Origin: the human T2T-CHM13v2.0 reference genome, Homo sapiens
NCBI RefSeq assembly: GCF_009914755.1
Contig: NC_060927.1
DNA: 64,000 nucleotides
Reading direction: 5' to 3' (one strand)
The notes under the pieces: generated by a model
Told to the model about the DNA's origin: nothing
Database searches by the model: none
The model's input: the letters and a program-made list of their open reading frames with translations, nothing else
Program-made: the position numbers and the translations under genes
Shown: piece by piece, positions 43,840-59,610 of the stretch
How the letters are laid out: every line of letters begins with the position of its first letter
How positions within the stretch are numbered: position 1 is the first letter of the stretch

Positions 43840-44043
<204 letters not shown>

Positions 44044-47000
44044 TAGCGCCTTTCCTGCCCCTGGCTAGACAGACCCAGTGTGCGGTTCAGACGCCTAGCA
44101 GTAGGCCTTCCTCGACTCTGACCCAGGCTGTGAGTGGGACAGCCTCCTCCCAGCCATCTGGTCCCTTCTGCCTGCACACATCACGGAGAGAACAGGTGCA
44201 TTGGTGCTGACTCTGGATTTCTGCCTGAGGTTTGGGGTTTAGAGTTGTATTTGGTAAGGTGGCTTTATAGCCAAGGAAGGTCAAACGGACCCACTGTTGG
44301 CCTGGGAAATTCAGTAAGCGCATTTCTGTGCGGGCACAGGGGTGATGAGACACATATTCTTGTACCACAGGAGAAGAAGCTGTGGTTTCCCTCACCTCAG
44401 AGTGAACAGTGTTATTGGACAAGAATTTGAAGTGCAGGGTTCCTCTTGACTCTTACTCTTAGGCCACCTGACATGGCTCCTACATGTGCTATTCATATGA
44501 AGCCATATGCTTAGCCCATCAGGGGCTGGGAGGAAACCGGCTCACCATTCTAGGCAGGTGTTAAGGGGCATGTGAGTCAGTGACAGCTGCTTTGCTGTCA
44601 CCCATCGACACCCCACACTGTGACACTAAGCACCCTAGAGCACCTTCTGCAGGAGGCAAGGCCTGAGAACTCAGTCCATCACTGACATTAATTGCCATTG
44701 TCAACCACGGTGTCTCTTTCACTGCATACTTTTCCCACAGATGCGCTCTTATTCTCTCTGGGGCCCTTTGTGCCTCGGGTCAGAGTGGAAACTGGAATCC
44801 AGCAATGCATTTGACTGAGATGTCTGTGACTTGCTTCAAATCTAGAAGAGTTGGATAGGAAGGACCAAGAACGTACTTCAAGTGCACATGTCCATTGAGA
44901 GGCCTGGGGACCCGAGGCCGGCCCTACGTTGTAGAAGATGGCCGAGCAAGTCCCTGCTTGAGCAGAGCGCCTTGGATGTTTTGCTCTCAGCAAGGCCTGT
45001 TGCTGGGTACAGGGGAAACCCAGAGCTGGAGAGGATGTGGAGTGCTGCCTCCTAGGGAGAGACAGGCCTGTCACACTAAATGCAGCCCTGGGGAGCAGAG
45101 CTGCAGGGCACACATAGAGGGCAGGCACCGCCGACGAGGGATCGAGGACAGGGCTGGAGGGAGCATTTGGCCTGGGCCCTGAAGGATGGATGGATTGCAG
45201 GTGTGACCATTCAGTGTCAGAAGAAGCACCCTGACCCAGGGGACTAGCGTGAGGGAGGCGTGGAGGTGGACAAAGGCCAGGTTTCAGGGAGGAAGCAGTG
45301 GGCCCTTCAGCTGGAGCACAGAGGGTATGAAGGTCGGGGTGAGCTGCCATAGGAAGGGTGGGTGAGGTGCAATTGTGCCTCTTCTGGAGGTTGTGGAGTG
45401 TGTAAGTGGGGGCTGAGAGACCCCTGGTGGAGAGGCTTCTTGACTGAGAGGGCCCTTACCTTTCTTCAAGCCTGGGCTCTGTGCCTCCATGGGGAGGGAG
45501 TGTGTTCCGTGATCTCAGATGCCCTGGCTGGTGCAAACCAGTGTGCTGACTGGGAGTGGGCAGGGTCAGGCCTCTCTTCTCTCCCTCCCTGCTTCTTGCC
45601 AGGCTCAGGAAGGGGCCAGGACTTCAGCACCTGAGGATCAGAAGACTGAGGGAGGGTTTCTAGAGCTAACTGTTTGCTGAATGCAAGTTCAGAGTTTATA
45701 AATAGACATTCATGTGAGTCTCAGACTCAGCGATGTGCCTATGAAGTGATCAGATGTAAGAGTGTCTGCCTGTCCTCTGCACAGCTCTCCCCTTGGCAGT
45801 TGAGCCAACGTGAACCCCATGGCTTTCGTGGAGCTTCTGCACCTGCAGTATGGCAACAGGCCATGTAGGTGCAGCTTGGAGATGCCTGCACCGCTCTTTT
45901 CCCCTTCACTTGCAAACTGTAACTCAGATGCTGACCTGCCCCATCTCCCCTAAACCCAACATGTTATTTGTAAACGAGAGGAGGTATGGCCCCTTTTTCT
46001 CAGCAGAGTGTCTTTCTTTGCTAGTTTAGCTGTGTCCCCCAGGGAGCTGAGTGAGGCCTTCTTACAGGCCAGTGGCCTTTCCTCTGTTTATTTCTCCTCC
46101 TCTAGAAGTAGACAAGGTTTCGTGTTCTAGTGTTGCTAACATTAGTCGTGGTAGAGTTGTTTATAGGGCCTATGATTTGAGGATTAAGGGTTTTCATTGG
46201 ATTTAAGGTGATATCTTGAGGGTTAACCATTTTATCTCAGCCCAGCATTTCCTATGACCTATCACTGTAAAAACCTGATGATGACAGAAATCAATGACTC
46301 TGCCTTTCAGAGAACTTGCCATGAGGGGAAGATGGAGAAGGAGTGGCTTAGTGTGAGAAGCTGATCCCATTGTTAAGGCCCAGCACTCTGCTGTGTGAGC
46401 CCAGGAGGGCGCGATGATTCTGGCTGGTGGGAGTGGGCAGGCTGGGGCGATGTGAGGAAGGCTCCGTGGGAGGAGCAGCCCTGGGCGGCAGAGGTTGGGG
46501 GTGGGGGCTTTTTCAAGCTGGGGAAATGGCACAAACAAGGTGTGCGAAGTGACAAATATTCAGGGCCCTTAAGTGCATTGCTCAGTAATATAATCTAGGA
46601 AAGAAACAAAACCTGTTTAAAAGCCTTGTAGATCTTCAGAATTCACTCTCACTGGGGCTCCCAAGCCCATAAAGCTGCAATGTGTCTTGGGAACATCAGC
46701 AGTATTGTTTCTGCTATGCACCGTGATGTGTGACTCAAAATGATTAACTAGCTTAACGTTTGATCCAGAATAGCAAATATTTCTGTGGTGCGCCCTTGTT
46801 CTTTATGGAGCTCGTTTTGCCAGGTGCTGGGGTTTCCTGTGGAGTGAGGCTCACAGTGCTTCCCGAGTCATCAGATTTCCAGAGCCTTGCTGATGAGGGT
46901 TTTAAATAAAGACAGAAATCTTGGCTGTGGAGGCCATGATGGGATTTAGCTGACTTGAGAGCACCAAGTCTCCTCCTCCTCTGAGGAGAAAACCTCTCTG

Positions 47001-47849
47001 ATCACAGACCTCAGCAGCCCAGACCCTCTGGAGGAGACAGCACTGTTGAGGTTTCCCTGGGGCCTCCTGTGGCTGCCAGCCATTTTCTTCCTGTCACAGC
47101 CAGAAAACCACACAAGGAGAGGGTTTCAGTGAGGCCCACATGGTCCTCCTCACCAAATAAACAGTCCTGGATTCACCACATGCACATGCCAGGTCTGGGG
47201 CTGTCTCTGTGCATCTGATTAGCAGGCAGTAGAAATGTGGGTGTTGCCAGTGTTACGGTGTCTGCATCCTCCCTGGGGGTGTGAGATCACCCCACGTGCC
47301 TTCCACTCCAACCCTGCTCCTCTGTTACCTCTTGAGAGGAGGATGGCGCAGGGCCCGGGCTCCTGACTTTGTCCATAATGGCTAAGGATGCTAATTCAAC
47401 TGAGAGCCCTTTTCAGCTGGGTCCTGGATGTGAGTTGAGCAGTTTCCTCCCAGACCTTGAGGATTGAAGTGACAGTGTGAGAAGAAATGCTTCCTGATAG
47501 CCGAGCCTCAGCCTAGATGAGCAGAAGTGGGTGTAGGAAGTCATTAATAACAGCAGATGTCTGTGAGCTCACAGGAGGCAAAGGCTTGGGCTGGAGGGCA
47601 TCTTGATGCCCCTTCTCCGGATGTGGCTGCAATGGAGTTTTGTGACTTGGAATTTGGACTTTAGTATTAGGCAAATTACTCAACCTCTCTGGACCCCACT
47701 TTCCTTGTCTGCAAGAAGGGGATAAAGATATATCTCCCCATGGGGCTGTTGTGACAATTGAACGTTCTGTGACTGCTAGGAGTAGTCATAGTTGTAGTAT
47801 GTGCTGCTGCTGTTTTCATCAGACACCAGTAAAAGTTGACCTCAACAGA

Positions 47850-48113
47850 ATTTTAGGGGTATAAATTTAGGGGGTACAAATACCGTTCTGTGACATGGAC
47901 ATATTACATAGCGGTGAGGTCTGGGCTTTTAGTGTAACCATCACCCGAAAAGCGTACATTATACCCAGTAAGTAATTTCTCATCCCTCATGCCTCTTCCA
48001 CCCTCCCACCCTTCTGTGTCTCCAATGCCTATTATTCCATCCACACCCTATGTCCATGTGTACACATTATTTAGCTTCTGCTTATCAGTGAGAATATGCA
48101 GTATTTGACTTTC
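47850..48113 (-). mobile_element. L1PB-like 3' end fragment
   Basis: gggggtacaaa...gtctgggcttttagtgtaaccatcaccc...gtgagaatatgcagtatttgactttc. Confidence 0.8.
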
Positions 48114-48409
48114 CTAAACATAATATTTTTGAAGGTTCTCCTAGACCGCTAACCAGCCTCAGGGTGGGGCCTCCCTCTTAGGACCATTGCCCTGTGCTTT
48201 TCTGTTCAGAAACTATAAAGTTCTGAAGTATTGATGGAAAACAAATCTGTTAACTAGGTCACTTTCGAGATAGGGCAGCACAGCTTTCAGGCTCTTGAAG
48301 TCCATTTCTAGTTTGGCGGTGCTTGCTGTCAGGGAACAGATGTCAAATCAAGTACTTGGAGATGCGCTCACATTATCTTTTCTCTCTGATCTGCTAAATG
48401 TCACTGCAT

Positions 48410-48589
48410 GCGTCTGCGATGCCCAACACTGGCTGTACGTTATAATCACCTGGGGAGCTTGGATGCTTCTTGATGCCATACTCCACCCTCTAAGACTCTT
48501 GATTAATCTTGGGGTGGGAGCCAGGGGTGGCTCTTTTTCATTAAGGTTCCCTGGGGATTCTAATGTGAAGCTAGGGTTCAGAACTCCTG
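48410..48589. mobile_element. MER5-like hAT-Charlie element
   Basis: aatcacctggggagctt...ccctggggattctaatgtgaagctagggttcagaactcctg. Confidence 0.7.
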
Positions 48590-50269
48590 AGTCCAGGATG
48601 CTATCAGTGGCTGAATATCACACTGTTCCAGGCATTCACTTGAAAGAAGAGGAGAGGCAATCAGGCCTCTAACTGAGCTGTCTGGTGACTGGTGACAGGT
48701 AGCTCCAGCTTTGTGCATTCATAGAATATTTAAAATGTCAATTTCATAAATTTGCTATTAGAAAGCTGGTGTTACACAATTAACTGAATGGACAAAATTC
48801 CCTTTGAAGTGAGTTCCTGAGCATTTGGTAAATTTTCAAGGATAATTTATTTAACTTTTTGCTGAGCTTCAAGTTTCTTAAGAAACCCTGCCAAATCTCA
48901 AAGTGATTTTTTTAGACATATGCAGCTGCTTCTGAGTTAACAATGGAGTTTTGCTAGGACCATTAAAATCTGGAAGCCTAAAATTCTATTTTAAACTCTT
49001 CTCATTGTCAGTGATTAGTCTTAAAAAAAAAAAGCATTAAAAATGAAATCATTTTAAAGGGAGCTCATTCTAAAATTCTGGCCAGAAAAGCAGGGCAATT
49101 TTATTGTAGGAACTATTAATGATTAATAATTCCTCTAAGTAAAGATATTTGATGCCCAAAGAAAGGGAGGGGCATACCTGAAACTTCATCTCTGACCACA
49201 AGGGCAGCCTCTCTGTCTTCTGCTTCTTCAGTGGTCCTGGAGGCTATGGGCACTGCCCCTGCCTGCCCGGGGACTCTGCCACCCTGGGGCTTGGTGGAGC
49301 AGGTTGCCCTAGCTGCCTCTCTTTTGCATGTGCTACCTAGTTGCCTCTGACTGCAATGTTTGCTTTGGGGGTGGACAGAAAACCAGGACGTTATAGCTGG
49401 TTGCAAGCATAAGGCATAGCAATTTGCTGGTCCTGTTTTGAAAGACTGTGTTTTGAAATTTTGATTTACAAAACTGCTTTCATCACCATTGAACTACCTC
49501 AAGGCACAAGTTCAAAATGGAAGATACTCAATTAAAAGCTGTAAAGCAAACAGCAGCAGTTAGAGTGGCATACGGTAAATATGCGTCCAGGTCAAGAGCC
49601 CTCACTGGAGAGGCAGCTGGAAGTGCTTTCACTGGGAAGTGGGAGGGCTGACTCAGGGGCTGGCCCTAGGGTCAGTGGCTGGACACTGTCTCCATTGGGG
49701 TGGCACTGGGAGTAGTTGTCTGGACAGGCAGACTCTCTCCACAGGGGTGATAGAAAGCAGTGGTAATTTCTAAAAGTGCCTGCATGTCTGCCATCACCTT
49801 CAGCCTCCTAAGAGCTGATGGGAGCTGGACTCAGGGACTGTTGCCCCACTGTGGAGACAAGGAGTGGGTACTCCAGCCAAGTTTGCAGTCTCAAATCAGG
49901 GTTGTTTTATTTGTTTTTAATACATTTTAATTATGGAAGTAATATTTGCCTACATAAAAAATTCATGTAATTTCAAAGTATATAAAGTAAGAAAAAAATT
50001 CTCTCTTCCTTCTCCTTAAAGAGAGGCAGACTTAGAAGTTTGGGGCCTCTACTTCCCCACCTCACTGCACATAATACATGACACAGACCGCATGCATATA
50101 GCTTCCACCCTAAGATGCCCAACACAGGTATTTTTCACTGAACCATGTACCACAGATATTTCCCATGTTTTTAAAGCAAAATGTTGGCTCTTTTCAATAA
50201 ATTGCCATTATAAAAACTGCTACAATGGACTATGCACTCTACAGCACGTGGACCTCTACTTTATAGAGG

Positions 50270-50640
50270 TCTCTCCACCATGAGACCATCAGCTCCATGG
50301 GTGCAGCAGGAATAGGGTCTGTTTCTGCCCTCTGTTGTGTGGCTGCACCCAGCACAGTGCTTGTCCCATACATGAGCATGCCATTACTTCCTTCTTGAAT
50401 GAAAGAACATAGAGTAATAATAACTAGCATTTGTCAGGTGCTTTCTGTGTGTGAGACACTGTTCCAAAGGCTGTGGGTGAATACATTCATTCTTCTTCAC
50501 ACAACTCTGTGAGACAGGAACTTGACAGATGGGGAAACTAAAGCACAAAGCAGTTCAGTAGCTTCCCAAGGCCATGTGACTTACGTGGCAAAGCTGGGAT
50601 TTGAACCCAAGCTCTGCCACAGTCTGCAGGCTAACTATCA
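50270..50640. mobile_element. L2 end (~50270-50410) and MIR (~50415-50640)
   Basis: cccagcacagtgctt...tgaatgaa, then taataataactagcattt...acagatggggaaactaaagcac...gggatttgaaccca. Confidence 0.7.
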
Positions 50641-51039
50641 TTAACCCCTGCAAACACATGCCCCTGTGTCTGCGTGCTCGTGTTCATGGTTTTGTGGGAG
50701 AGGATACAAGAAAAGGGTCTGCTGTGTCAGAAAGGATGCACATTTTAGGAACGTGAGTATTCTGCCTACCCATAGTGTGCAGGTGTCTGTGCTGCCCATG
50801 CCCTTGCTTACTCCAGCATTCCTGCTGCTGTCTCACACTGCTTCGCACAACCCTCCCCTAGAGCACAGGGTCCGTACTCTAAAGACTAGCTGGCTTAGAG
50901 TGATCATGGAATCATGGGGCTGCAAGGGGTTAAAGATCCTAGAGTCATTTCTCTCGTGACCTGGTGGTCATGGGAGAGTCGTAGTGATGACAGTAGTGGT
51001 GGTTGATTGTGCCTTGCCAAAGCTGGGCACATTGCTTTT

Positions 51040-51235
51040 ATTACTGTCTCCACTGTTCACCTCTTACAACAACCTTACGCAGTACAGGTCCAATTATTAT
51101 TGACATCTTACAGGTGTGGAGGAAACTAAGGCTTCACAGTATCAGGTAACCTGTCCACAGTCTTCTGACATGGAAGTGACAGGGCTGGGGTTAGACCTGG
51201 CCTGTCAGAGTCCAGAGCCCACCTTTTGAACTCCC
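51040..51235 (-). mobile_element. MIR
   Basis: cttacaacaacctta...acaggtgtggaggaaactaaggc...tccagagccc. Confidence 0.65.
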
Positions 51236-51622
51236 ACCTGTCCTGTCCCATATGGTAGTGCTGTTTGGAATCACATATCCAGTCTGTACAGGGCTCCTGA
51301 CTCCCCCTAAAGTGCCTTTTCCTTAATACCCTACTTAGATGGGAAGCCAAACCCTGGAAACCTTTATCTAGCATGGGTTAGCTGGTTGTTGATTTAGAAC
51401 AGGTTCTTAAAGACAGGTGTTTGTGTAATAGCTGTGGAAAGGGCACTTCCTCTCCGCTGTTCTGATGCTGAGCTGGATTCCTAGCAGGAGGGGTCTGGGG
51501 CAGGCGGGCGTCCATTGCGTGAGGCAAGCTGGCTGGCAGGGCTGGCCGCGTGGGGCCCTGGTTTGGCTGCTGTTGCTGCCCTCTGCTGCTTCATAATGAA
51601 ATTGCCTGTGTTCAACCTGAAG

Positions 51623-51706
51623 GGGTCACAGTGGCCGACTTGCTTAAAGAGGATAAGAAGAAAAAGAAGTTTTGCTGCTTTCGGCAACGCAGGGCTAAAG
51701 ATCATG
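51623..51706 (+). CDS. CACNA1D: Candidate alternative cassette exon 9*/9a (84 nt, 28 aa) in the I-II loop
   Basis: cctgaag|GGGTCACA...GATCATG|gtaaat. Phase 1-1 matches the exon 9/10 junction and there is no stop. Encodes (R)VTVADLLKEDKKKKKFCCFRQRRAKDH(A). Same position as CACNA1C exon 9*. Confidence 0.8.
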
Positions 51707-52176
51707 GTAAATTGCTGAGACTGAGCTTTCTTTTTCCGCAACATCTCTGATACCTTTTCCTTGCACATAGGCATTGTGTGAAGTGCATGTGCCGTGTGGT
51801 GTGTTCAGAAGATGCCTATATTTTAATTGCTTGATTTCTTTCTTCTTGTCTTTTTCCAAAATAATGTGCCCTTACCAAGATAGCATTGCAGTTTTCTTTT
51901 TGTTTGAACTGTACCTTATAAAGAAGCAGCTGAACCAACTCAAAAAATGTACTTGATTCGGCATGAATATTCTTAGACTGGAAGGCAGACTTTTAAAATA
52001 CTTTTCCCCAAATGATTTTTTTAAATTTAAACCGTTTAGAAATTCCAATAATGTTATTTGATTGATTTTTTTTTCTCCAGGCTACATGTTTCAAATTGCT
52101 TCTCTGTCTTTTAGTCTCTGGCTACTTTGCCCAGGACTATGCCAAAGCTAGTAGTGGCAGCTTTAAGAATGAAATT

Positions 52177-52500
52177 AGCTGGATGCAGTGGCTCACACCT
52201 GTAATTCCAGCACTTTAGGAAGCCGAGGCAGGAGGATCACTTGAAGCCAGGAGTTTGAGACTAGCCTGGGCAACAAAGTGAGACCCTGTGTCTACCAAAA
52301 ATTGTAAACAAAGAAGCAAACAAAAAAATCAGGTGTGGTGGTGCATGCCTATAGTCCCCAGCTACTTGGGAGGCTGAGGCAAGAGGATTGCATAAGCCCA
52401 GGAGTTCGAGGCTGCAGTCAGCGATATTGCGCCATTACACTCCAGCCTGGGTAACAGAGTGCGATCTCTGTCTCTTAAAAAATAAAAATAAATAAAAATA
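52177..52500 (+). mobile_element. AluJ
   Basis: gcagtggctcacacctgtaattccagcacttt...gcccaggagttcgaggctgcagt, followed by an A-rich tail. Confidence 0.93.
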
Positions 52501-54725
52501 GACTTCAGGGATGCAAAGATTTGGGGGCACTTGCCTTTGAAAGTGAGAATGGGCTCGTGTGGGAAAGTTATATTTCCAGATATGTCCTAAAATGATGCTA
52601 AACATACCCTTCCTCAGAATCCCTGGAGTAGCTGTCAGGCCCATCCCCAGGCAGACAGTTAGGTGAGCAGCTGGCTCCCTGCCTTGCTCTGCCCAAGTCA
52701 TGGCAGTGGTTCGACAGCAGCACAAAGCTTTGCCTATGCACACCAGCACAGTCGACCCAGTTCTGCCACCAGGATCGGCCCTGGTCACCTGACTCTGGGG
52801 AAAGTCTGTTTAAGGAGATTCAGACAGCAGGGACGTGAAGCCAACAACTAAGGGAACAGAGGGGACACACTGTACTCTTTTCTTTGAAGTGGCCTCTGGC
52901 CCCATGGGAATGCTGAGCTGAGAGGTTATGGGACGCAGATGGGAACAACCCGTGGATATCTGAAGAGGGTTATATTAGAGTCTAGGTCTCATCAGAAGGC
53001 CTAAAAGTGAAAAGGAATTAAGAGATTATCAGATATAAGCCCTTGTCATTCAGCACGTTGTGGACCCCAAAGGAGGGAGAAGAGGAGGTGGAACTTGCCT
53101 GAGGTGGGACAGTGAGTTAGGGGCAGAGTTGGGGCTGCCTTTTTTATCTGTAGCATTCACGGAAGGTTTATGAACAGGAGGCTGGGCTTGATGCAGCACC
53201 TGAAGGTGTCTGCAAGAAGAATGGCCTTCAGCTAAGCAGGAAATAGTGTCATGGACATAAGAAAAAACATCTTTAAAGACTGACATAGGGATATAGCTCT
53301 GGAGAGGTTACCAAAAGGAGATAAATGATTTCTGTCCCCAGAAAAGAAAACACCCCTCCTTGGTTCTGCCTTGCTGAATGCAGGCTTGGGCCTTGTGATT
53401 CTTTAAGGATTCTTGTGCCTTCTCCATTGTCTTTCTGAGATCTGCAGGGAGAGGAAGCAGGCTGACACATTTAAGGAACTTTATTTTGAGTGGGAATGGC
53501 TTTTTATTGACTGAAATACCTGGGGACTCAGGAAGGACTCCGACCCTGCTGGCACCAGGTGGGGCACGAGCCCTCATATGGATGCTGGGCTGCCCCTGTC
53601 CCTGAACACGCGGAGATAGTTATTGTCTGGGCATAATTCTTGCTTGAGACATGGAAACCTTGGTCTGGCCTTGACCTCCATTCTCCAAGAAGAGCCTGGC
53701 TTCTTTACAGCAGCAAGAGGCTGTTACTCTGTGGTGGCCTAATGTGTCTCTACTAGCATGTGCATGTGCCTTTAGGGGGTGTGTGGGCTTCTTCTGGATT
53801 TGGCAGGCCTGTACGTCATGGTACTGCTCATGTTTGTCATGAAAATAAGATGAAAACATGAGGTCTAGGTGTCAGGTACCCTGTCCCCTAGGAAGGCAGC
53901 CACAACTCAGCCACTGCTCAGTTGTCCAGCCTCACCCCCTACCCTTACCTTTGAAAAGAATGAGAAGCTTTAGGCTGCTTGGAGGTGGAAGGAAATGCTA
54001 AAATAAATTCCTGAGTGTGCAAAAAAGTCTGTCCTGTGGAGAACAGAGGAGTGAGGCTCTGAGGCCAAAGACATCTGTGAATGAGGCTACTAATGGGACA
54101 GGTTCTAGACGAGGCTGGAGGGCTCTGGGCTCAGTTTGATGTGTGGCAAGCCTTCCCTTCGGGGTGCCTTGACTGGAGGACTGAGGCTCTCCTGTGACGC
54201 CCTGAGGCCTCTGGGGAGCTACTGCTTCCTGTGCTGCACCCCATTCTCTGGGACATTCTACATGCAGAGCACTTGGACTCAGTTCTCCAGTGCAGGCTGC
54301 TGGCTGGACCCCTGGCTTCCCTCCTGAGGGTGGCGGGCAGGGGCTCACTTCTTGTGCCCTCCCCTCCTTGCAGAGCTGGGGGAATGCAAGGGAAACCCCC
54401 TGGTTGTTGGTAGTAAAACCAGCCAGCATGTGGGCGTTTCTGCCTTCCTGCAGTTATAGCAGGTCAGAGGTAAATGGATCTTAGAGATGATACTGTCCTA
54501 CAACTCATCTTACAGATCTGGTAGCCAAGCATAGGGGAAAAGAGGCACTTGTCCCATTGTCACCTGATGATAAGCACCAGGCTTTCCTGACATTTCTTCC
54601 ATCATTTTTGACCTCATCAGCCTCCATCACTGAAGGTTGATCTGAGATTTTGCTATACCTGTTAATGGTGAACATAATTTTGAGGCTGCCTGCTTAGGAC
54701 CCACACATAGACTCATTTGCTCTGT

Positions 54726-54730
<5 letters not shown>

Positions 54731-54772
<42 letters not shown>
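54731..54772 (+). repeat. (TG)21 microsatellite
   Basis: Read directly. Confidence 0.97.
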
Positions 54773-54774
<2 letters not shown>

Positions 54775-57700
54775 AGATTTGCCTCCAAATTCACAAGCCT
54801 GACACATTTGGCTGAGACGAATGTCGTCCTTCAGCATGAGAGTAGATGGATAAATGTCTACACCTTGGTGAAAATGCTAGTTGTGCTTACCTGAGAAGCA
54901 GCAGATTTCCCTGGTTTACTGTGTGTGGCATTGCCCATGATAACATCTGGCCCAGTGCAAGATCTTAAAGAGAAGCACCATGACCCACATCCACAGAGTG
55001 CTCCAAGTAGGGGCCTGGCCCGGCTGCCCATGCTGCAAAGGCCTTGGAAACTCTAATTACAGTCTGGGACATGCAGGGCTGCTGTCTGCCACCATCCTCT
55101 CACCCCCAGTGGCACCCAGGCCCCCCGCCACCAATCTCAGTGCACCACACTGTAAGCCTAAGGGTCTGCCCTGGAGCTCTTCCCAGAGATCCCAATGCCT
55201 GGAATAGATTGCAAAATATAGGCCTTGAGCTTCTCCAGATTTTCAGCAGGCAAATTGCAGTGCCAGCATCCTCTCACAGGTCACAGGCTTTCCTAATGCT
55301 TGGTTTTTCCCAGACTCACTGAAAGTAGTTTTTAAATTTATATAAAAAATAAACTTCTCTAACAAAGCTCTAACATTCCAGTTTCCTGAAATGTGTCAGG
55401 GAAGAGGCTTCACAGCTTGTTCATGTGCAGATGGCCCCTGGTGCTTATTTCTACAGTAGGGGACTGGCACTTGTCGGCAATGTGGGGAGGTCTGAGGGGT
55501 CTGCCTGCACCTCTAATAAGGCCTAGCCACTTGTCAGCAATTAACACTGAATCCCTGCTGAAGGGGACAAGGCCATCACCTAAATGGGGCAGTCACAATG
55601 CTATGGAAGCCAGTTAGGAGAAGCCCATGTATTCGGGTAATTTGCCCATGGCTTTACCTTCATGAGTTTGTATGACTCTTTCTGTCTGGATTTTTATAAA
55701 AGCCCAGTCGTCACCATTGCAGCCTGATTTTTGTGCTGTCGTCGGTCACTGAGCTGATATCCTGTAAGTGATCTGGTTATATGCCAGATTTTGAGTGGTT
55801 AATAAAGGTCATCAGAATAGTAAACCAGCACTGGTAGATAATAGACTCGTTTGGCTTTTTGGAACTTGTTGATTTGTGGAATTTTAAGTACATAACACCA
55901 AAATGTATACCAGTGAAACCACAGTACATACTTGAAAAGAATGGTGAGTGGAAGTTAGGAGAGATTTCTCAGTGTCAGCTGTGTGTCCCAAGGCATTTTG
56001 GCGAGTTCTGTCCTCTGAGAAATCAAGAGTTTGCTCACGTATTCTCAGAAGCCCCTTCTGGTTCTAACAGTCTATGATTCTTTTCTTTATTTTTTAAAAA
56101 CATAGATGAGATCCTATTGGGGCTAAAGGAAGGGAAAGTCATATTAATTTTTTAACATTAAAAAAATGAATGCCTAATGCAAGTGAAGGGTAAAATGCTT
56201 TATTTTTAATAAATGAGGTCTTTGTTATACCCACTGAGCCTGATCTTTTCAAATATTTTTGGAAAAGGATAAGTGTGATATTTCTTCTGGAAATATTTTG
56301 GAAAAGGATCCTGTGATAGGGAGTAAGTGGCTGGAGAAGGTAGGCTGCCAGGGCCCTGGTCAGAGTGCGTTTCCTCTGCCCAGATTTAGGGGCTGGATCA
56401 AGGGCTGTTTCCAGGACCAAATGAGGTCTCCAATTTCTAGCGTAGGCACTGTCCTCTTTCTTTCCGTCTGCCTCTGCTCATCCTCAGCCCTGGCAACATC
56501 TTTTTGGGATATATTTATTTATTATGTGCCTGTGGCTCTTTAGGTGTCAAACAACTATGACAGGAGAAGTTGCTATGCCTACAGTAGGCAAAGTTAGACA
56601 ATAACTCAGCTAAAGACAGAGAAAATACAAACCAAGAATGATGGCCAAAGCTGATTCAGAGGTATGGAAGATGGCTCACACTAGATGCGTCTGTGCAATG
56701 ATGAAAGTGGCCAGGGCAAAATGACACTGGATTGGTCGCTTTGCTTCCAGGGAGCTCCAGGAGAGCTTTTCTGAGATGATGGAGTTAACATGTGTGGGCC
56801 TCACTGATCATCCAGCCCTGGGGACCCAGCACTCCGCATGCCTCATCTCATTCTTACCCTTTTACAGGTGAGGCAATGGAGATGTACAGAAGTCAGGTCA
56901 CAAACGCGGGGTTAAACTTAGATCTGGCCAACCTCTGCACCTGCTCTCAGCCACTATCCCAACCCAGCTGAAGGACAGAATCAGCTCAGAGAGCAGGAGG
57001 ACCCTGCCTCACCCTCAGTGGAGCCCTGGCACAGTGCTGTGAGACTATCTTCCCCTCTTTGTTGCTGTTTGGGGAGTTCGGTTTTACTTCTTGTCTTTCC
57101 CCACAGTTAGTCTAGGGAGCAACTAGAACATTTCATACACTAATAGTTGGCAGGGGGCCAGAAATGCTAACTGATGACCCCATTCCCATAGAAAATATGT
57201 AATTTATCTGTTTCAATCAGATTGTTTTTAAAATGAAGCTTTAGAATTGAAATGCTGCAACTGTACCGATATCAGCATGAGACATGACTCCAGAGATTAA
57301 AAAGCCACAAAGACTTAGTCTTTTCAGAAGTTTGCTCTTTTGAAAATAATGACTAATGTTCCTACATGATTAATATTAGAACTATGAGATAGCAAACTGT
57401 TAAAGATGGAAATGACCCTCAAGATTGTGGAGTTCACACCACCATTTTAGAGACAGGAAAGTGAAGCCTGGAGAGAGGTGATCCATTGCCCAGGAGACTC
57501 AGAAAACAGGACCAGGCCTGTGGGTTCCCCACATCATACTGCCCTCAACTCCTGGTCCCCTCAGTCACTGCAGTAACCACCACGGAAAATGCCGCACAGA
57601 GTTAACTCATGATCAGATGTGAAAAGGGTCTCCCACTGTGATTTTCTTTGTTGGATTTAACAACCTCCTCACCTTTCTGCTGAATCAGAGTGAGGAACAG

Positions 57701-59397
57701 TCGAGGAGAATTGCATGAGTAGCTTCTTGTGTGTCTGTGTGTGTTAATGGAGTTTTTTTTTTTAAGGTTTTTCCATGATTAGAGTCGTATTTTTTGTTTG
57801 TTTTTGTCCAGTTTTTTTGTTTGTTTGTTTCTGCATGAAATAATGAAAAAGTAAATCAAGGTTTGTAATTGGTTTCTTCTGACTTAGGAAAGAAGAAAAT
57901 TATTCTATGAGAGTACCAGCAATGTAACATGAGTCTATAATTTTACTCACTTGGTCTTAACTTTTGACACCCTTGCCTCAGTGTTCCTGGGCATGGCGTG
58001 GAGGCTCCCATGCAGGCAGGCTCAGTTTCTCGGGCACTCACAAGCGGAACGGATCAGGGATCTTCTTTGGTATCCTCAAGAAACTTCTCAGACCACTGGG
58101 TTCCTTGAGCCAGGTTCCACCTCTATCCCTGCTGTTACCTTTATGAAGTCTGCTATGAGCAAGGCGGGCCGAACACAGCCCCCTACGCGAGCTGCCTGAT
58201 CCAGCTCCTTTCCCCCTGAGCCTGGGCTGGGCCTCAGAATCTTCGCCATAGCGCTTCCAGCCCGCTACCAGTATTTGCAGATGAAACTTGAGGCATCCTT
58301 GCTAAGGGGAGCCACACGGGCAGAGCCCATGGGCCAAGCTTTCCTGAAGACATCGTAAGGTCTGTAAAAACAGTCACTACAGTTCAAAGCCATGCCTCAG
58401 GAAAAAGGAAGTACACGTGGATTCTCTTCCGTGACTTCCTCTTTTACCTCTGCACCCCGGCAGAATTAATCCTTCTTTACTCTGGAACCTCCTGCACAGA
58501 CCCCTGAGGTAGCTCTCTTCACAGCTGATGGAAGTGAGCTGGGGGCTGCCTGTCCCTCACCCCTATTCCAGGTGGGTGCAGTGCTGTGTGCCCTCTTTTT
58601 GCCCCTGCCCTCCTCCACTGCCTGGGCTCGTGTTCGTGATGTTTATGGGGTTGAATCAAGTGGATGAGAAAAGACGCTCGTGCACCAGATGGTGGCCCTG
58701 GGTGGACCCTGGACCTCCACACACTAGTGGGCGTGTTTCCACATTTCCTCTACTTCCGCTCAGGATCCTACCATGGAGAAGTGGGATGGGCCCAGAGACC
58801 CTAGTCATACTGAGACCAGAGTCAACCTTGCCCTCTGCTCACTGGTTGATAATGATCTTCTTCTTCCACTCGTAACACTATAATTCCTTGGTGCTCTAGT
58901 TGTTCTTACCCAGCTTACTGGGTAAGAACTTTCTGCGTATTGGCTTCACAAGCTCAGCAGAACTTCAGCATCAGGTAAAATAGCAAAAAAATAGAGTTCT
59001 TAACTCTAAAAAATGTTGTGCATGGTACCTTCATGCACTGCCTTCCCCATTCACAATAGCTCTTCTCCCTCAGTATATTTAAGATGATTGACTCATGAAA
59101 TGTTAGGGTTATTCACAGATGTTCTATATGCACCTTTTGGGGCAAGCAAAGATGTACCTGTAAAGTACATTTTGGTGGCTTCTCAGTGTGATCCCAGAGA
59201 TGAGGAGGATAAAGTGGTGCTATACCCAGCCACAGGATTCACTTTGATCCCTTAGCTTCCTTTCTTGGAAATGTCTAGGGGGATAGAATGTCCTCCTCGA
59301 GGGGGACTGTGTTCCCTACAGGCCATGGGTGCAGAGACTCGCCTGCAGTGGAGATGCCTGGCTCCTTGGCACTCCCTTAGCCCAGCTGAGGCCCTGA

Positions 59398-59610
<213 letters not shown>

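What the first reader, a model, noticed from the sequence alone, without database searches (positions are those of the whole stretch)
51623..51706. Hidden 84-nt in-frame exon adding a polybasic di-cysteine motif next to the AID
Seen: an AG/GT-bounded, phase 1-1, stop-free, purine-rich exon. It converts GKRN-T-SMPT to GKRN-RVTVADLLKEDKKKKKFCCFRQRRAKDHA-SMPT. Both splice sites are weak (AAG acceptor with a poor pyrimidine tract; ATG|gtaaat), as for a regulated exon. From memory: it lies where CACNA1C has exon 9* and where chick hair-cell Cav1.3 has a 26-aa insert starting RVTLADL, and it is absent from the common human reference isoforms. The exon is therefore probably ancient and under-studied rather than new. 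Inference: KKKKKFCCFRQRR looks like a palmitoylation plus phosphoinositide-binding anchor. It could tether the I-II loop to the membrane and slow inactivation, as the palmitoylated beta2a N-terminus does, but encoded in cis by splicing.
Basis: partly seen in the sequence, partly recalled or inferred. Interest (0 to 1): 0.8.

Follow-up and report, generated by a model that had tools for sequence, protein, structure and literature searches.

The report
Known hair-cell exon of CACNA1D
This is a real, conserved 84-base optional exon of the calcium-channel gene CACNA1D that has been reported in inner-ear hair cells but is missing from the human gene models, and what its basic, cysteine-bearing insert does is still untested.

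Summary
Window 51623-51706 is an 84-nt, AG/GT-bounded, phase 1-1, stop-free segment, and splicing it in inserts the polybasic FCCF peptide 17 residues after the AID. Form alone is not unusual: 520 comparable segments lie in the same intron.

Three things make it a real exon:
- Eight read-through ORFs from other vertebrate DNA keep the frame. Of 18 substitutions, 17 are conservative, and one change is a whole-codon deletion. The flanks change like non-coding DNA.
- Ranum 2019 lists an unannotated, coding, 84-nt "Cacna1d exon 9B" in mouse cochlear cells. Its human interval matches this one after an assembly-offset check.
- It is paralogous to CACNA1C exon 9* and to a CACNA1F exon. All share a basic run followed by a hydrophobic x-(W/C)-F core.

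The exon is therefore already known and only under-annotated. The palmitoyl/phosphoinositide anchor idea is plausible but untested. The basic cluster is invariant. The second cysteine is missing in 4 of 8 relatives, and neither paralogue has a cysteine there. Moderate interest.

The parts
51623..51706 (+). Cassette exon of CACNA1D between exons 9 and 10 ('exon 9B' of Ranum 2019; 'exon 9a' of the chicken literature, the latter recalled). It is 84 nt and phase 1-1.
   Evidence: sequence, frame. (protein-type conservation in 8 relatives). (published mouse and human coordinates, offset check).
51655..51669 (+). Five lysine codons (AAG AAG AAA AAG AAG). They form the basic block and also a purine-rich GAR run that could act as an exonic splicing enhancer (inference).
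   Evidence: All five positions are K or R in 9 of 9 sequences.
51670..51681 (+). The F-C-C-F codons, with Cys codons at 51673-51678. These are candidate S-acylation sites and the hydrophobic core.
   Evidence: Both Phe are invariant. Both Cys are kept in 5 of 9 sequences and at least one in 9 of 9. The paralogues read F-A-W-F and L-R-W-F.
51558..51622 (+). Conserved upstream intron flank. It holds six UGC/YGCY motifs (51568-51605), a branch-point-like TTCAT at 51590, a purine-interrupted tract and an AAG acceptor.
   Evidence: 6 TGC against a background mean of 1.14; 0.29% of 65-nt windows reach 6; 108 of 128 cells identical in 8 relatives, with non-conservative changes.
51707..51712 (+). 5' splice site GTAAAT.
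   Evidence: 7 of 9 consensus positions.
51770..51819 (+). GU-rich downstream intron element with UGCAUG at 51784-51789. It is a candidate intronic splicing enhancer (RBFOX or a GU-binding factor; inference).
   Evidence: 8 GTG in 50 nt; 0.43% of windows reach 8. The equivalent stretch is recognisable in the ORFs P0002 and P0003.
43869..44038 (+). Exon 9, the upstream splice partner. It encodes the AID ([18 protein letters not shown]) and a 17-residue acidic tail with net charge -6.
   Evidence: hub annotation.
59522..59609 (+). Exon 10, the downstream splice partner. It is acidic (net -4) and has its own Cys-Cys at 59593-59598.
   Evidence: Kuo 2023 states that Cav1.3 has a cysteine analogous to the palmitoylated C519 of Cav1.2.

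Best explanation
Window 51623-51706 is the human copy of a regulated cassette exon of CACNA1D. It has been reported as an unannotated coding exon ('9B') in mouse cochlear cells, and it is paralogous to CACNA1C exon 9* and to a CACNA1F exon. That part is shown.

Inclusion replaces one Thr codon with 28 codons. It places a net +7 block 17 residues after the beta-subunit binding helix (AID), in a stretch that is otherwise strongly acidic. The block is five Lys, then F-C-C-F, then R-Q-R-R-A-K.

The following is inferred. The block works as a basic-hydrophobic membrane-interface motif. The basic run binds acidic lipids and the Phe/Cys core inserts into the bilayer. In Cav1.3, S-acylation of the conserved cysteine or cysteines may strengthen this. 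The proximal I-II linker and the AID-beta complex would then be held near the bilayer, which biases gating. By analogy with exon 9* the expected effect is a negative shift of activation, and possibly slower voltage-dependent inactivation.

Tissue restriction would come from the weak AAG acceptor combined with the conserved UGC-rich upstream and GU-rich/UGCAUG downstream intron elements.

My odds are about 0.9 for the identity as a real, known exon, about 0.45 for membrane association, about 0.3 for S-acylation, and about 0.5 for a measurable gating effect.
For: Frame and junctions.

Conservation: 8 of 8 read-through ORFs from other vertebrate DNA keep the frame. In the exon part 195 of 216 cells are identical. 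Of 18 substitutions, 17 are conservative (K/R, V/L, Q/R, E/D; mean BLOSUM62 +1.44), and one whole codon is deleted in 3 sequences. The same frame in the flanks gives mean BLOSUM -1.40 and -1.20.

Expression: Ranum 2019 Table 1 lists Cacna1d exon 9B as 84 nt in mouse and human, conserved, ORF, coding, and not in RefSeq or Ensembl. The hg19-to-T2T offset is 798 for this exon and 808 for exon 22B of the same table.

Paralogy:
- Exon 9* (C12:2551156-2551230, 75 nt, same intron and phase) is the best non-low-complexity match among 1872 candidates.
- The pair score of 32 is reached by 6 of 20,000 and 4 of 20,000 shuffles.
- In the reverse comparison, exon 9a ties for the top score among 613 candidates.
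- The CACNA1F exon scores 56 against 9*.
- The shared core is a basic run followed by hydrophobic-x-(W/C)-F.

Functional analogy: exon 9* shifts activation and the I-V relation by 9 and 11 mV in the negative direction (review passage).

Precedents: Cav1 I-II linkers bind the plasma membrane through a polybasic cluster (Kaur 2015). The Cav1.2 I-II linker is palmitoylated at C519 and C543 with an effect on voltage dependence (Kuo 2023). Membrane-anchored beta2a and beta2e slow inactivation.

Flanking motifs.
Against: No human junction reads could be examined, and expression evidence comes from mouse only.

The second Cys is lost in 4 of 8 relatives (one-codon deletion in 3, Cys to Gly in 1). Neither paralogue has a Cys in the core. 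Dual acylation therefore cannot be the conserved function.

The Cav1.3 I-II linker without this exon already localises to the plasma membrane, so a further anchor may add little.

Helical hydrophobic moments are low, at most 0.47 (using a recalled scale), so the block is not an amphipathic helix.

The passages seen on exon 9* report an activation shift, not slowed inactivation.

The 8 relatives are ORFs that gene callers kept only because they are open, so there is ascertainment bias. They are also not independent lineages.
Confidence: 0.8

Rival explanations
1. The exon is real, but it acts through protein contacts and trafficking rather than lipid binding. The basic block would fold back on the acidic stretch just upstream (an ER-export-type motif). 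It would mask or expose binding sites for partners such as galectin-1-type regulators or ubiquitin ligases, and so change surface expression.
For: A review passage on exon 9* says that its inclusion abolishes galectin-1 inhibition, and proposes that its positive residues pair with the acidic ER-export residues of exon 9. RBM20-driven exon 9* inclusion is linked to Cav1.2 surface expression (reference title). The flanks here are strongly acidic, -6 and -4, against +7 for the insert.
Against: It does not explain why the hydrophobic x-(W/C)-F core is kept in all three paralogues. It also does not explain the activation shift reported for 9*. Nothing has been tested for Cav1.3.
Confidence: 0.25
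2. The exon is real, and its basic-hydrophobic block is a docking site for calmodulin, a CaBP or another protein of the hair-cell synapse.
For: Basic-aromatic clusters often bind calmodulin (general knowledge). Hair-cell Cav1.3 is heavily regulated by CaM-like proteins and scaffold proteins.
Against: Low helical hydrophobic moment. No match to any solved structure; the only hit was a chance one at E = 0.87. No partner is known.
Confidence: 0.1
3. The human copy is a conserved but unused relic, or is included only at trace level, and the conservation of the region reflects another role such as an intronic regulatory element.
For: None of the 22 RefSeq transcripts contains it (hub table). The intron flanks are also conserved. 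By shape alone, 520 similar segments exist in the intron.
Against: The substitution pattern is protein-like inside the exon only, and the one deletion is a whole codon. The human frame and both splice sites are intact. The mouse orthologue is spliced into hair-cell transcripts. Hair cells are hardly sampled in annotation data sets (Ranum discussion).
Confidence: 0.06

Closest known systems
Cacna1d 'exon 9B' (Ranum et al. 2019, Cell Rep, PMC6424336, Table 1) and the chicken hair-cell alpha1D I-II loop insert (Kollmar et al. 1997; content recalled, paper not held)
   Same: Same gene, same intron and same 84-nt length in mouse and human. The published human interval matches this one once the assembly offset is allowed for.
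   Different: Nothing structural; this is the same exon. The earlier report gives coordinates only. In the passages I saw it gives no peptide analysis, no link to exon 9* and no function.
CACNA1C exon 9*
   Same: Same intron (9), same phase 1-1 and an AAG acceptor. Both exons start with an Arg codon built across the junction and end in CATG|gt. They share a basic run plus F-x-x-F.
   Different: It is 75 nt rather than 84, with net charge +2 rather than +7. It has no cysteine (A-W in place of C-C) and an S-H-S-T tail in place of R-Q-R-R. It is used in smooth muscle and diseased heart rather than in hair cells.
CACNA1F exon directly after exon 9 (C23:48638473-48638565, minus strand)
   Same: Paralogous position. 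It has a basic run plus L-R-W-F-S-H-S-T and also ends in CATG|gt.
   Different: It has a strong pyrimidine tract and a CAG acceptor, so it is probably constitutive (its status is recalled, not checked). It uses arginines instead of lysines and has no cysteine.
Palmitoylated N-terminus of Cav-beta2a, and the basic N-terminus of beta2e
   Same: Adjacent cysteines next to basic residues, attached through the AID to the same part of the channel. Membrane anchoring slows inactivation.
   Different: They act in trans on the auxiliary subunit, and they are proven biochemically, whereas nothing has been tested here. This is a likeness of mechanism only, not homology.
Constitutive polybasic membrane-binding motif of L-type I-II linkers (Kaur 2015) and palmitoylated C519/C543 of Cav1.2 (Kuo 2023)
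   Same: Same linker and the same kinds of lipid contact, with effects on gating.
   Different: Those sites lie further towards domain II and are present in all transcripts. This block is optional and sits next to the AID.

Membership tests
Cassette exon of CACNA1D (exon 9a/9B) | AG/GT boundaries and frame kept when spliced between exons 9 and 10 | tested here: met
Cassette exon of CACNA1D (exon 9a/9B) | Protein-type conservation confined to the exon | tested here: met
   17 of 18 substitutions are conservative and a whole codon is deleted in 3 sequences, while the flanks change non-conservatively. This is at protein level only; no DNA of relatives could be fetched.
Cassette exon of CACNA1D (exon 9a/9B) | Coincides with the published exon 9B interval | tested here: met
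   One search gives hg19 53,744,421-53,744,504 (84 nt). This exon is at T2T 53,743,623-53,743,706, an offset of 798. The control exon 22B has an offset of 808.
Cassette exon of CACNA1D (exon 9a/9B) | Junction reads in human tissue | not testable with these tools
   No RNA-seq data are available here.
Paralogue of CACNA1C exon 9* | Same intron and same phase | tested here: met
Paralogue of CACNA1C exon 9* | Sequence similarity beyond composition | tested here: met
   a score of 32 is reached by 6 of 20,000 and 4 of 20,000 shuffles; each exon is top or tied for top among 1872 and 613 candidates, the only rivals being low-complexity segments. The identity of the chr12 segment as exon 9* rests on its 75-nt length (the rat interval is also 75 nt) and on my recall of its peptide.
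Dual S-acylation motif (beta2a / GAP-43 type) | Two adjacent cysteines beside basic or hydrophobic residues | tested here: met
   The human sequence has them. The comparison with beta2a and GAP-43 is recalled.
Dual S-acylation motif (beta2a / GAP-43 type) | Both cysteines conserved | tested here: not met
   Both are kept in 5 of 9 sequences and one in 9 of 9. The paralogues have none.
Dual S-acylation motif (beta2a / GAP-43 type) | Thioester-linked acyl chains shown biochemically | not testable with these tools
   Needs acyl-RAC or acyl-PEG exchange.
Polybasic-hydrophobic membrane-binding motif | Cluster of at least 4 basic residues next to aromatic residues, conserved | tested here: met
   The basic positions are K or R in 9 of 9 sequences and both Phe are invariant. 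The pattern is kept in CACNA1C and CACNA1F.
Polybasic-hydrophobic membrane-binding motif | Lipid-dependent membrane localisation | not testable with these tools
   Needs GFP-peptide imaging with phosphoinositide depletion.

The most novel reading that the evidence does not exclude
Hair cells could build a lipid anchor into the Cav1.3 pore subunit itself by including this exon. An S-acylated cysteine or cysteines plus a polybasic run next to the AID would pin the AID-beta complex to the membrane whichever beta subunit is bound. This would supply part of the still unexplained, very slow voltage-dependent inactivation and negative activation range of inner-hair-cell calcium currents. The human exon would also be an unscreened target for deafness variants.
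Probability: 0.15. Interest if true: 0.7.

Novelty: already known. Interest (0 to 1): 0.35.

Why it matters
Cav1.3 is the calcium channel of the inner-hair-cell synapse and of the sinoatrial node. The origin of its unusually slow voltage-dependent inactivation in hair cells is described as incompletely understood (passage in PMC6960213).

An optional exon next to the beta-subunit site, used in hair cells, is a natural candidate contributor. In the ten library searches made here, no functional study of it turned up.

There are practical consequences too:
- The exon is missing from the human RefSeq models in the hub table, so exome panels and variant pipelines do not interpret changes in it.
- Channel constructs used for electrophysiology or gene replacement lack it.

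Ranum et al. raise both concerns for their whole set of unannotated exons.

Tried and rejected
- **More distant orthologues (bird, fish).** The word-indexed protein search and the exhaustive representative search returned only short read-through ORFs, plus one spurious bacterial repeat protein, P0010. These libraries seem to hold no vertebrate channel isoforms with the insert.
- **DNA of the relatives, for a dN/dS test.** Scans of genome contigs and viral contigs found nothing.
- **Solved structures.** No match, only a chance hit at E = 0.87.
- **Whole-genome search with the 27-aa peptide.** It found only itself. The paralogues emerged only from a targeted scan of intron 9 of each gene.
- **CACNA1S.** No convincing counterpart within 9.8 kb after its exon 9.
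- **Amphipathic-helix reading.** Rejected on low hydrophobic moment.
- **SRRM4 as regulator.** The UGC motifs fit the logo described by Nakano 2012, and Cacna1d is named there among genes with splicing defects. This is left open.
- **RBM24.** A review says a cochlea-specific Cacna1d exon is RBM24-dependent, but the primary paper is not held.
- **UGCAUG.** It is not enriched in the window as a whole: 46 sites found against 48 expected. Only its position 78 nt after the donor is suggestive.
- **'Exon 9a' in PMC3787742.** It refers to Cav1.4, not Cav1.3.

Full report
**What is there**

The window sequence reads aag|GGGTCACAG...GATCATG|gtaaat at 51620-51712. The segment 51623-51706 is 84 nt long. 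Exon 9 (43869-44038) ends with one base of a split codon, and exon 10 (59522-59609) starts with the other two. Without the segment the junction reads GKRN-T-SMPT. The 27 internal codons translate to VTVADLLKEDKKKKKFCCFRQRRAKDH.

The AID helix ([18 protein letters not shown]) is encoded in exon 9, and the insert begins 17 residues after it. The insert has a net charge of +7. It sits between an acidic tail of -6 and an acidic exon 10 of -4.

**Is the shape more than chance?**

No. The intron 44039-59521 contains 520 AG..GT-bounded, phase 1-1, stop-free segments of 60-200 nt. Six of them, this one included, have crude splice-site scores at least as good.

- The acceptor is poor: AAG with 12 of 18 pyrimidines, the joint lowest of the 11 exons in the window.
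- The donor matches 7 of 9 consensus positions, which is ordinary for this gene.

So "both sites weak" is only half right. The stretch is single-copy in the genome.

**Conservation**

A 40-residue read-through translation across the segment found eight proteins, P0002-P0009, in the large protein library. An exhaustive scan of 1.84 billion representatives found five of the same proteins and one spurious bacterial repeat protein. The eight are short ORFs on short contigs that read straight through intron, exon and intron. They are evidently vertebrate DNA called as protein.

Aligned with the human read-through ORF, the three zones behave differently.

| Zone (same frame) | Identical cells | Substitutions | Mean BLOSUM62 of substitutions |
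|---|---|---|---|
| Exon part | 195 of 216 | 18 (11 K/R, 3 V/L, 2 Q/R, 1 E/D, 1 C/G), plus 3 gap cells | +1.44 |
| 16 upstream codons | 108 of 128 | non-conservative | -1.40 |
| 13 downstream codons | 39 of 104 | non-conservative | -1.20 |

- Of the 18 exon substitutions, 17 are conservative.
- The 3 gap cells are a clean one-codon deletion.

This is the pattern of a protein-coding exon flanked by conserved non-coding sequence.

Caveats:
- The eight sequences are related to one another, amounting to roughly eight distinct changes.
- They were retained in the library only because they are open.
- No DNA of these relatives could be fetched for a codon-level test.

**Prior report**

Ranum et al. 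2019 (PMC6424336; passages and Table 1 seen) list 20 unannotated, highly conserved exons found by single-cell RNA-seq of mouse inner hair cells, outer hair cells and Deiters' cells. One is "Cacna1d exon 9B":
- mm10 chr14:30,137,042-30,137,125;
- hg19 chr3:53,744,421-53,744,504;
- 84 nt in both species;
- conserved, ORF, coding;
- not in mouse ESTs, RefSeq or Ensembl.

The window exon lies at T2T chr3:53,743,623-53,743,706, which is 798 lower.

As a control I fetched the expected place of "exon 22B" from the same table. There I found a 60-nt AG/GT exon at T2T 53,773,638-53,773,697, beside its twin at 53,773,499-53,773,558. Its offset is 808. The two offsets agree to within 10 nt over 30 kb, so exon 9B is this exon.

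The chicken hair-cell insert of Kollmar et al. 1997 could not be read.

**Paralogues**

The exon 9 peptide locates CACNA1C, CACNA1F and CACNA1S in the same genome. CACNA1C exon 10 lies 39.6 kb after its exon 9.

Among 1872 phase 1-1 candidates in that intron, the best non-low-complexity match to the insert is C12:2551156-2551230. It is 75 nt and encodes GTPAGMLDQKKGKFAWFSHSTETH. That this is exon 9* rests on two things: its length (the rat exon 9* interval quoted in PMC5748662 is also 75 nt) and my recall of its peptide.

- The pair score of 32 is reached by 6 of 20,000 shuffles of one peptide and 4 of 20,000 shuffles of the other.
- In the reverse direction, the window exon ties for first among 613 candidates of CACNA1D intron 9.
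- Both exons have an AAG acceptor, start with an Arg codon formed across the junction, and end in CATG|gt.

CACNA1F carries a third copy about 290 nt after its exon 9. It encodes [30 protein letters not shown], has a strong pyrimidine tract and the same CATG|gt end, and scores 56 against 9*. No counterpart was seen in 9.8 kb of CACNA1S.

The shared core is a run of four or five basic residues followed by a hydrophobic residue, any residue, W or C, then F. The exon therefore predates the split of Cav1.2, Cav1.3 and Cav1.4.

**What this says about mechanism**

Conserved across relatives and paralogues are the basic run and the aromatic core. The cysteine pair is not conserved:
- both Cys are present in 5 of 9 sequences;
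- one Cys is present in 9 of 9;
- the paralogues read A-W and R-W at that place.

Tryptophan and acylated cysteine both favour the membrane interface. The simplest common reading is therefore a basic-hydrophobic membrane-interface motif, with S-acylation as a possible Cav1.3-specific reinforcement. Helical hydrophobic moments are low (at most 0.47, using a recalled scale). That fits an extended block-type motif better than an amphipathic helix.

Precedents in the same linker:
- Cav1.1-1.4 I-II linkers bind the plasma membrane through a polybasic cluster needed for normal gating (Kaur 2015).
- The Cav1.2 linker is palmitoylated at C519 and C543, with an effect on voltage dependence. Cav1.3 keeps a C519 analogue, which lies in exon 10 at 59593-59598 (Kuo 2023).
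- Membrane-anchored beta2a and beta2e slow inactivation.

For exon 9*, review passages report a 9 and 11 mV negative shift of activation and of the I-V relation. They also report loss of galectin-1 inhibition, and propose pairing of the basic insert with the acidic export motif of exon 9. That proposal is the main rival mechanism here.

The anchor idea is weakened by the fact that the Cav1.3 linker without this exon is already at the membrane.

**Regulation (inference)**

- The 65 nt before the exon carry six UGC/YGCY motifs, against a background mean of 1.14. Only 0.29% of windows reach six.
- A branch-point-like TTCAT lies at 51590.
- The stretch 51770-51819 after the exon has eight GTG (0.43% of windows reach eight) and a UGCAUG at 51784.
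- Both flanks are recognisable in the relatives.

A weak acceptor combined with such elements is typical of tissue-restricted exons. Candidate factors (RBFOX, RBM24, SRRM3/4, MBNL) could not be told apart. The sources that might name the factor were not available, and one paper argues against SRRM3/4.

**Literature limits**

All ten full-text searches found no functional study of this exon in Cav1.3. The library lacks most subscription papers and the supplements were closed, so this is not proof of absence. Passages from PMC3710344, PMC4237458 and PMC3968275 contained nothing on it.

**Verdict**

The exon is real, ancient and already published, and is merely missing from the human gene models. 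The lipid-anchor mechanism remains an attractive, testable and only partly supported inference.

Noticed in passing
Outside the window: G000:C3:53773499-53773558 and 53773638-53773697 (locus L015): A pair of 60-nt twin exons 80 nt apart, encoding two versions of one transmembrane segment ([20 protein letters not shown] and MLGYADYVFTGTFAFEIILK). The second matches 'exon 22B' of Ranum 2019, which that paper lists as unannotated.
   Followed up: partly
L011:9474-9566, minus strand (G000:C23:48638473-48638565): CACNA1F has an exon paralogous to CACNA1C exon 9* and to the window exon. It has a strong acceptor, and arginines replace the lysines. So the optional exon of Cav1.2 and Cav1.3 looks fixed in Cav1.4.
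   Followed up: partly
window 59593-59598: Constitutive exon 10 encodes its own adjacent cysteine pair. Kuo 2023 notes that Cav1.3 has an analogue of the palmitoylated C519 of Cav1.2. With the cassette exon included, the linker would carry two Cys-Cys pairs about 35 residues apart.
   Followed up: no
P0002-P0009 (protein libraries): The metagenome protein libraries contain 'proteins' that are read-through translations of vertebrate intron plus exon DNA, that is, host DNA called as genes. This was useful here as an accidental source of orthologous sequence.
   Followed up: yes
window 51664-51666 (fourth Lys codon of the run): The human sequence has Lys where all 8 relatives have Arg, which is a conservative, possibly lineage-specific change.
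   Followed up: no
window 54698-54841: A (TG)n-type simple repeat gives an open Cys-Val run that scores as a false candidate exon in peptide scans.
   Followed up: no
window 51481-51804, minus strand: A 107-codon stop-free frame runs antisense across the exon. No evidence was sought that it is anything but chance.
   Followed up: no
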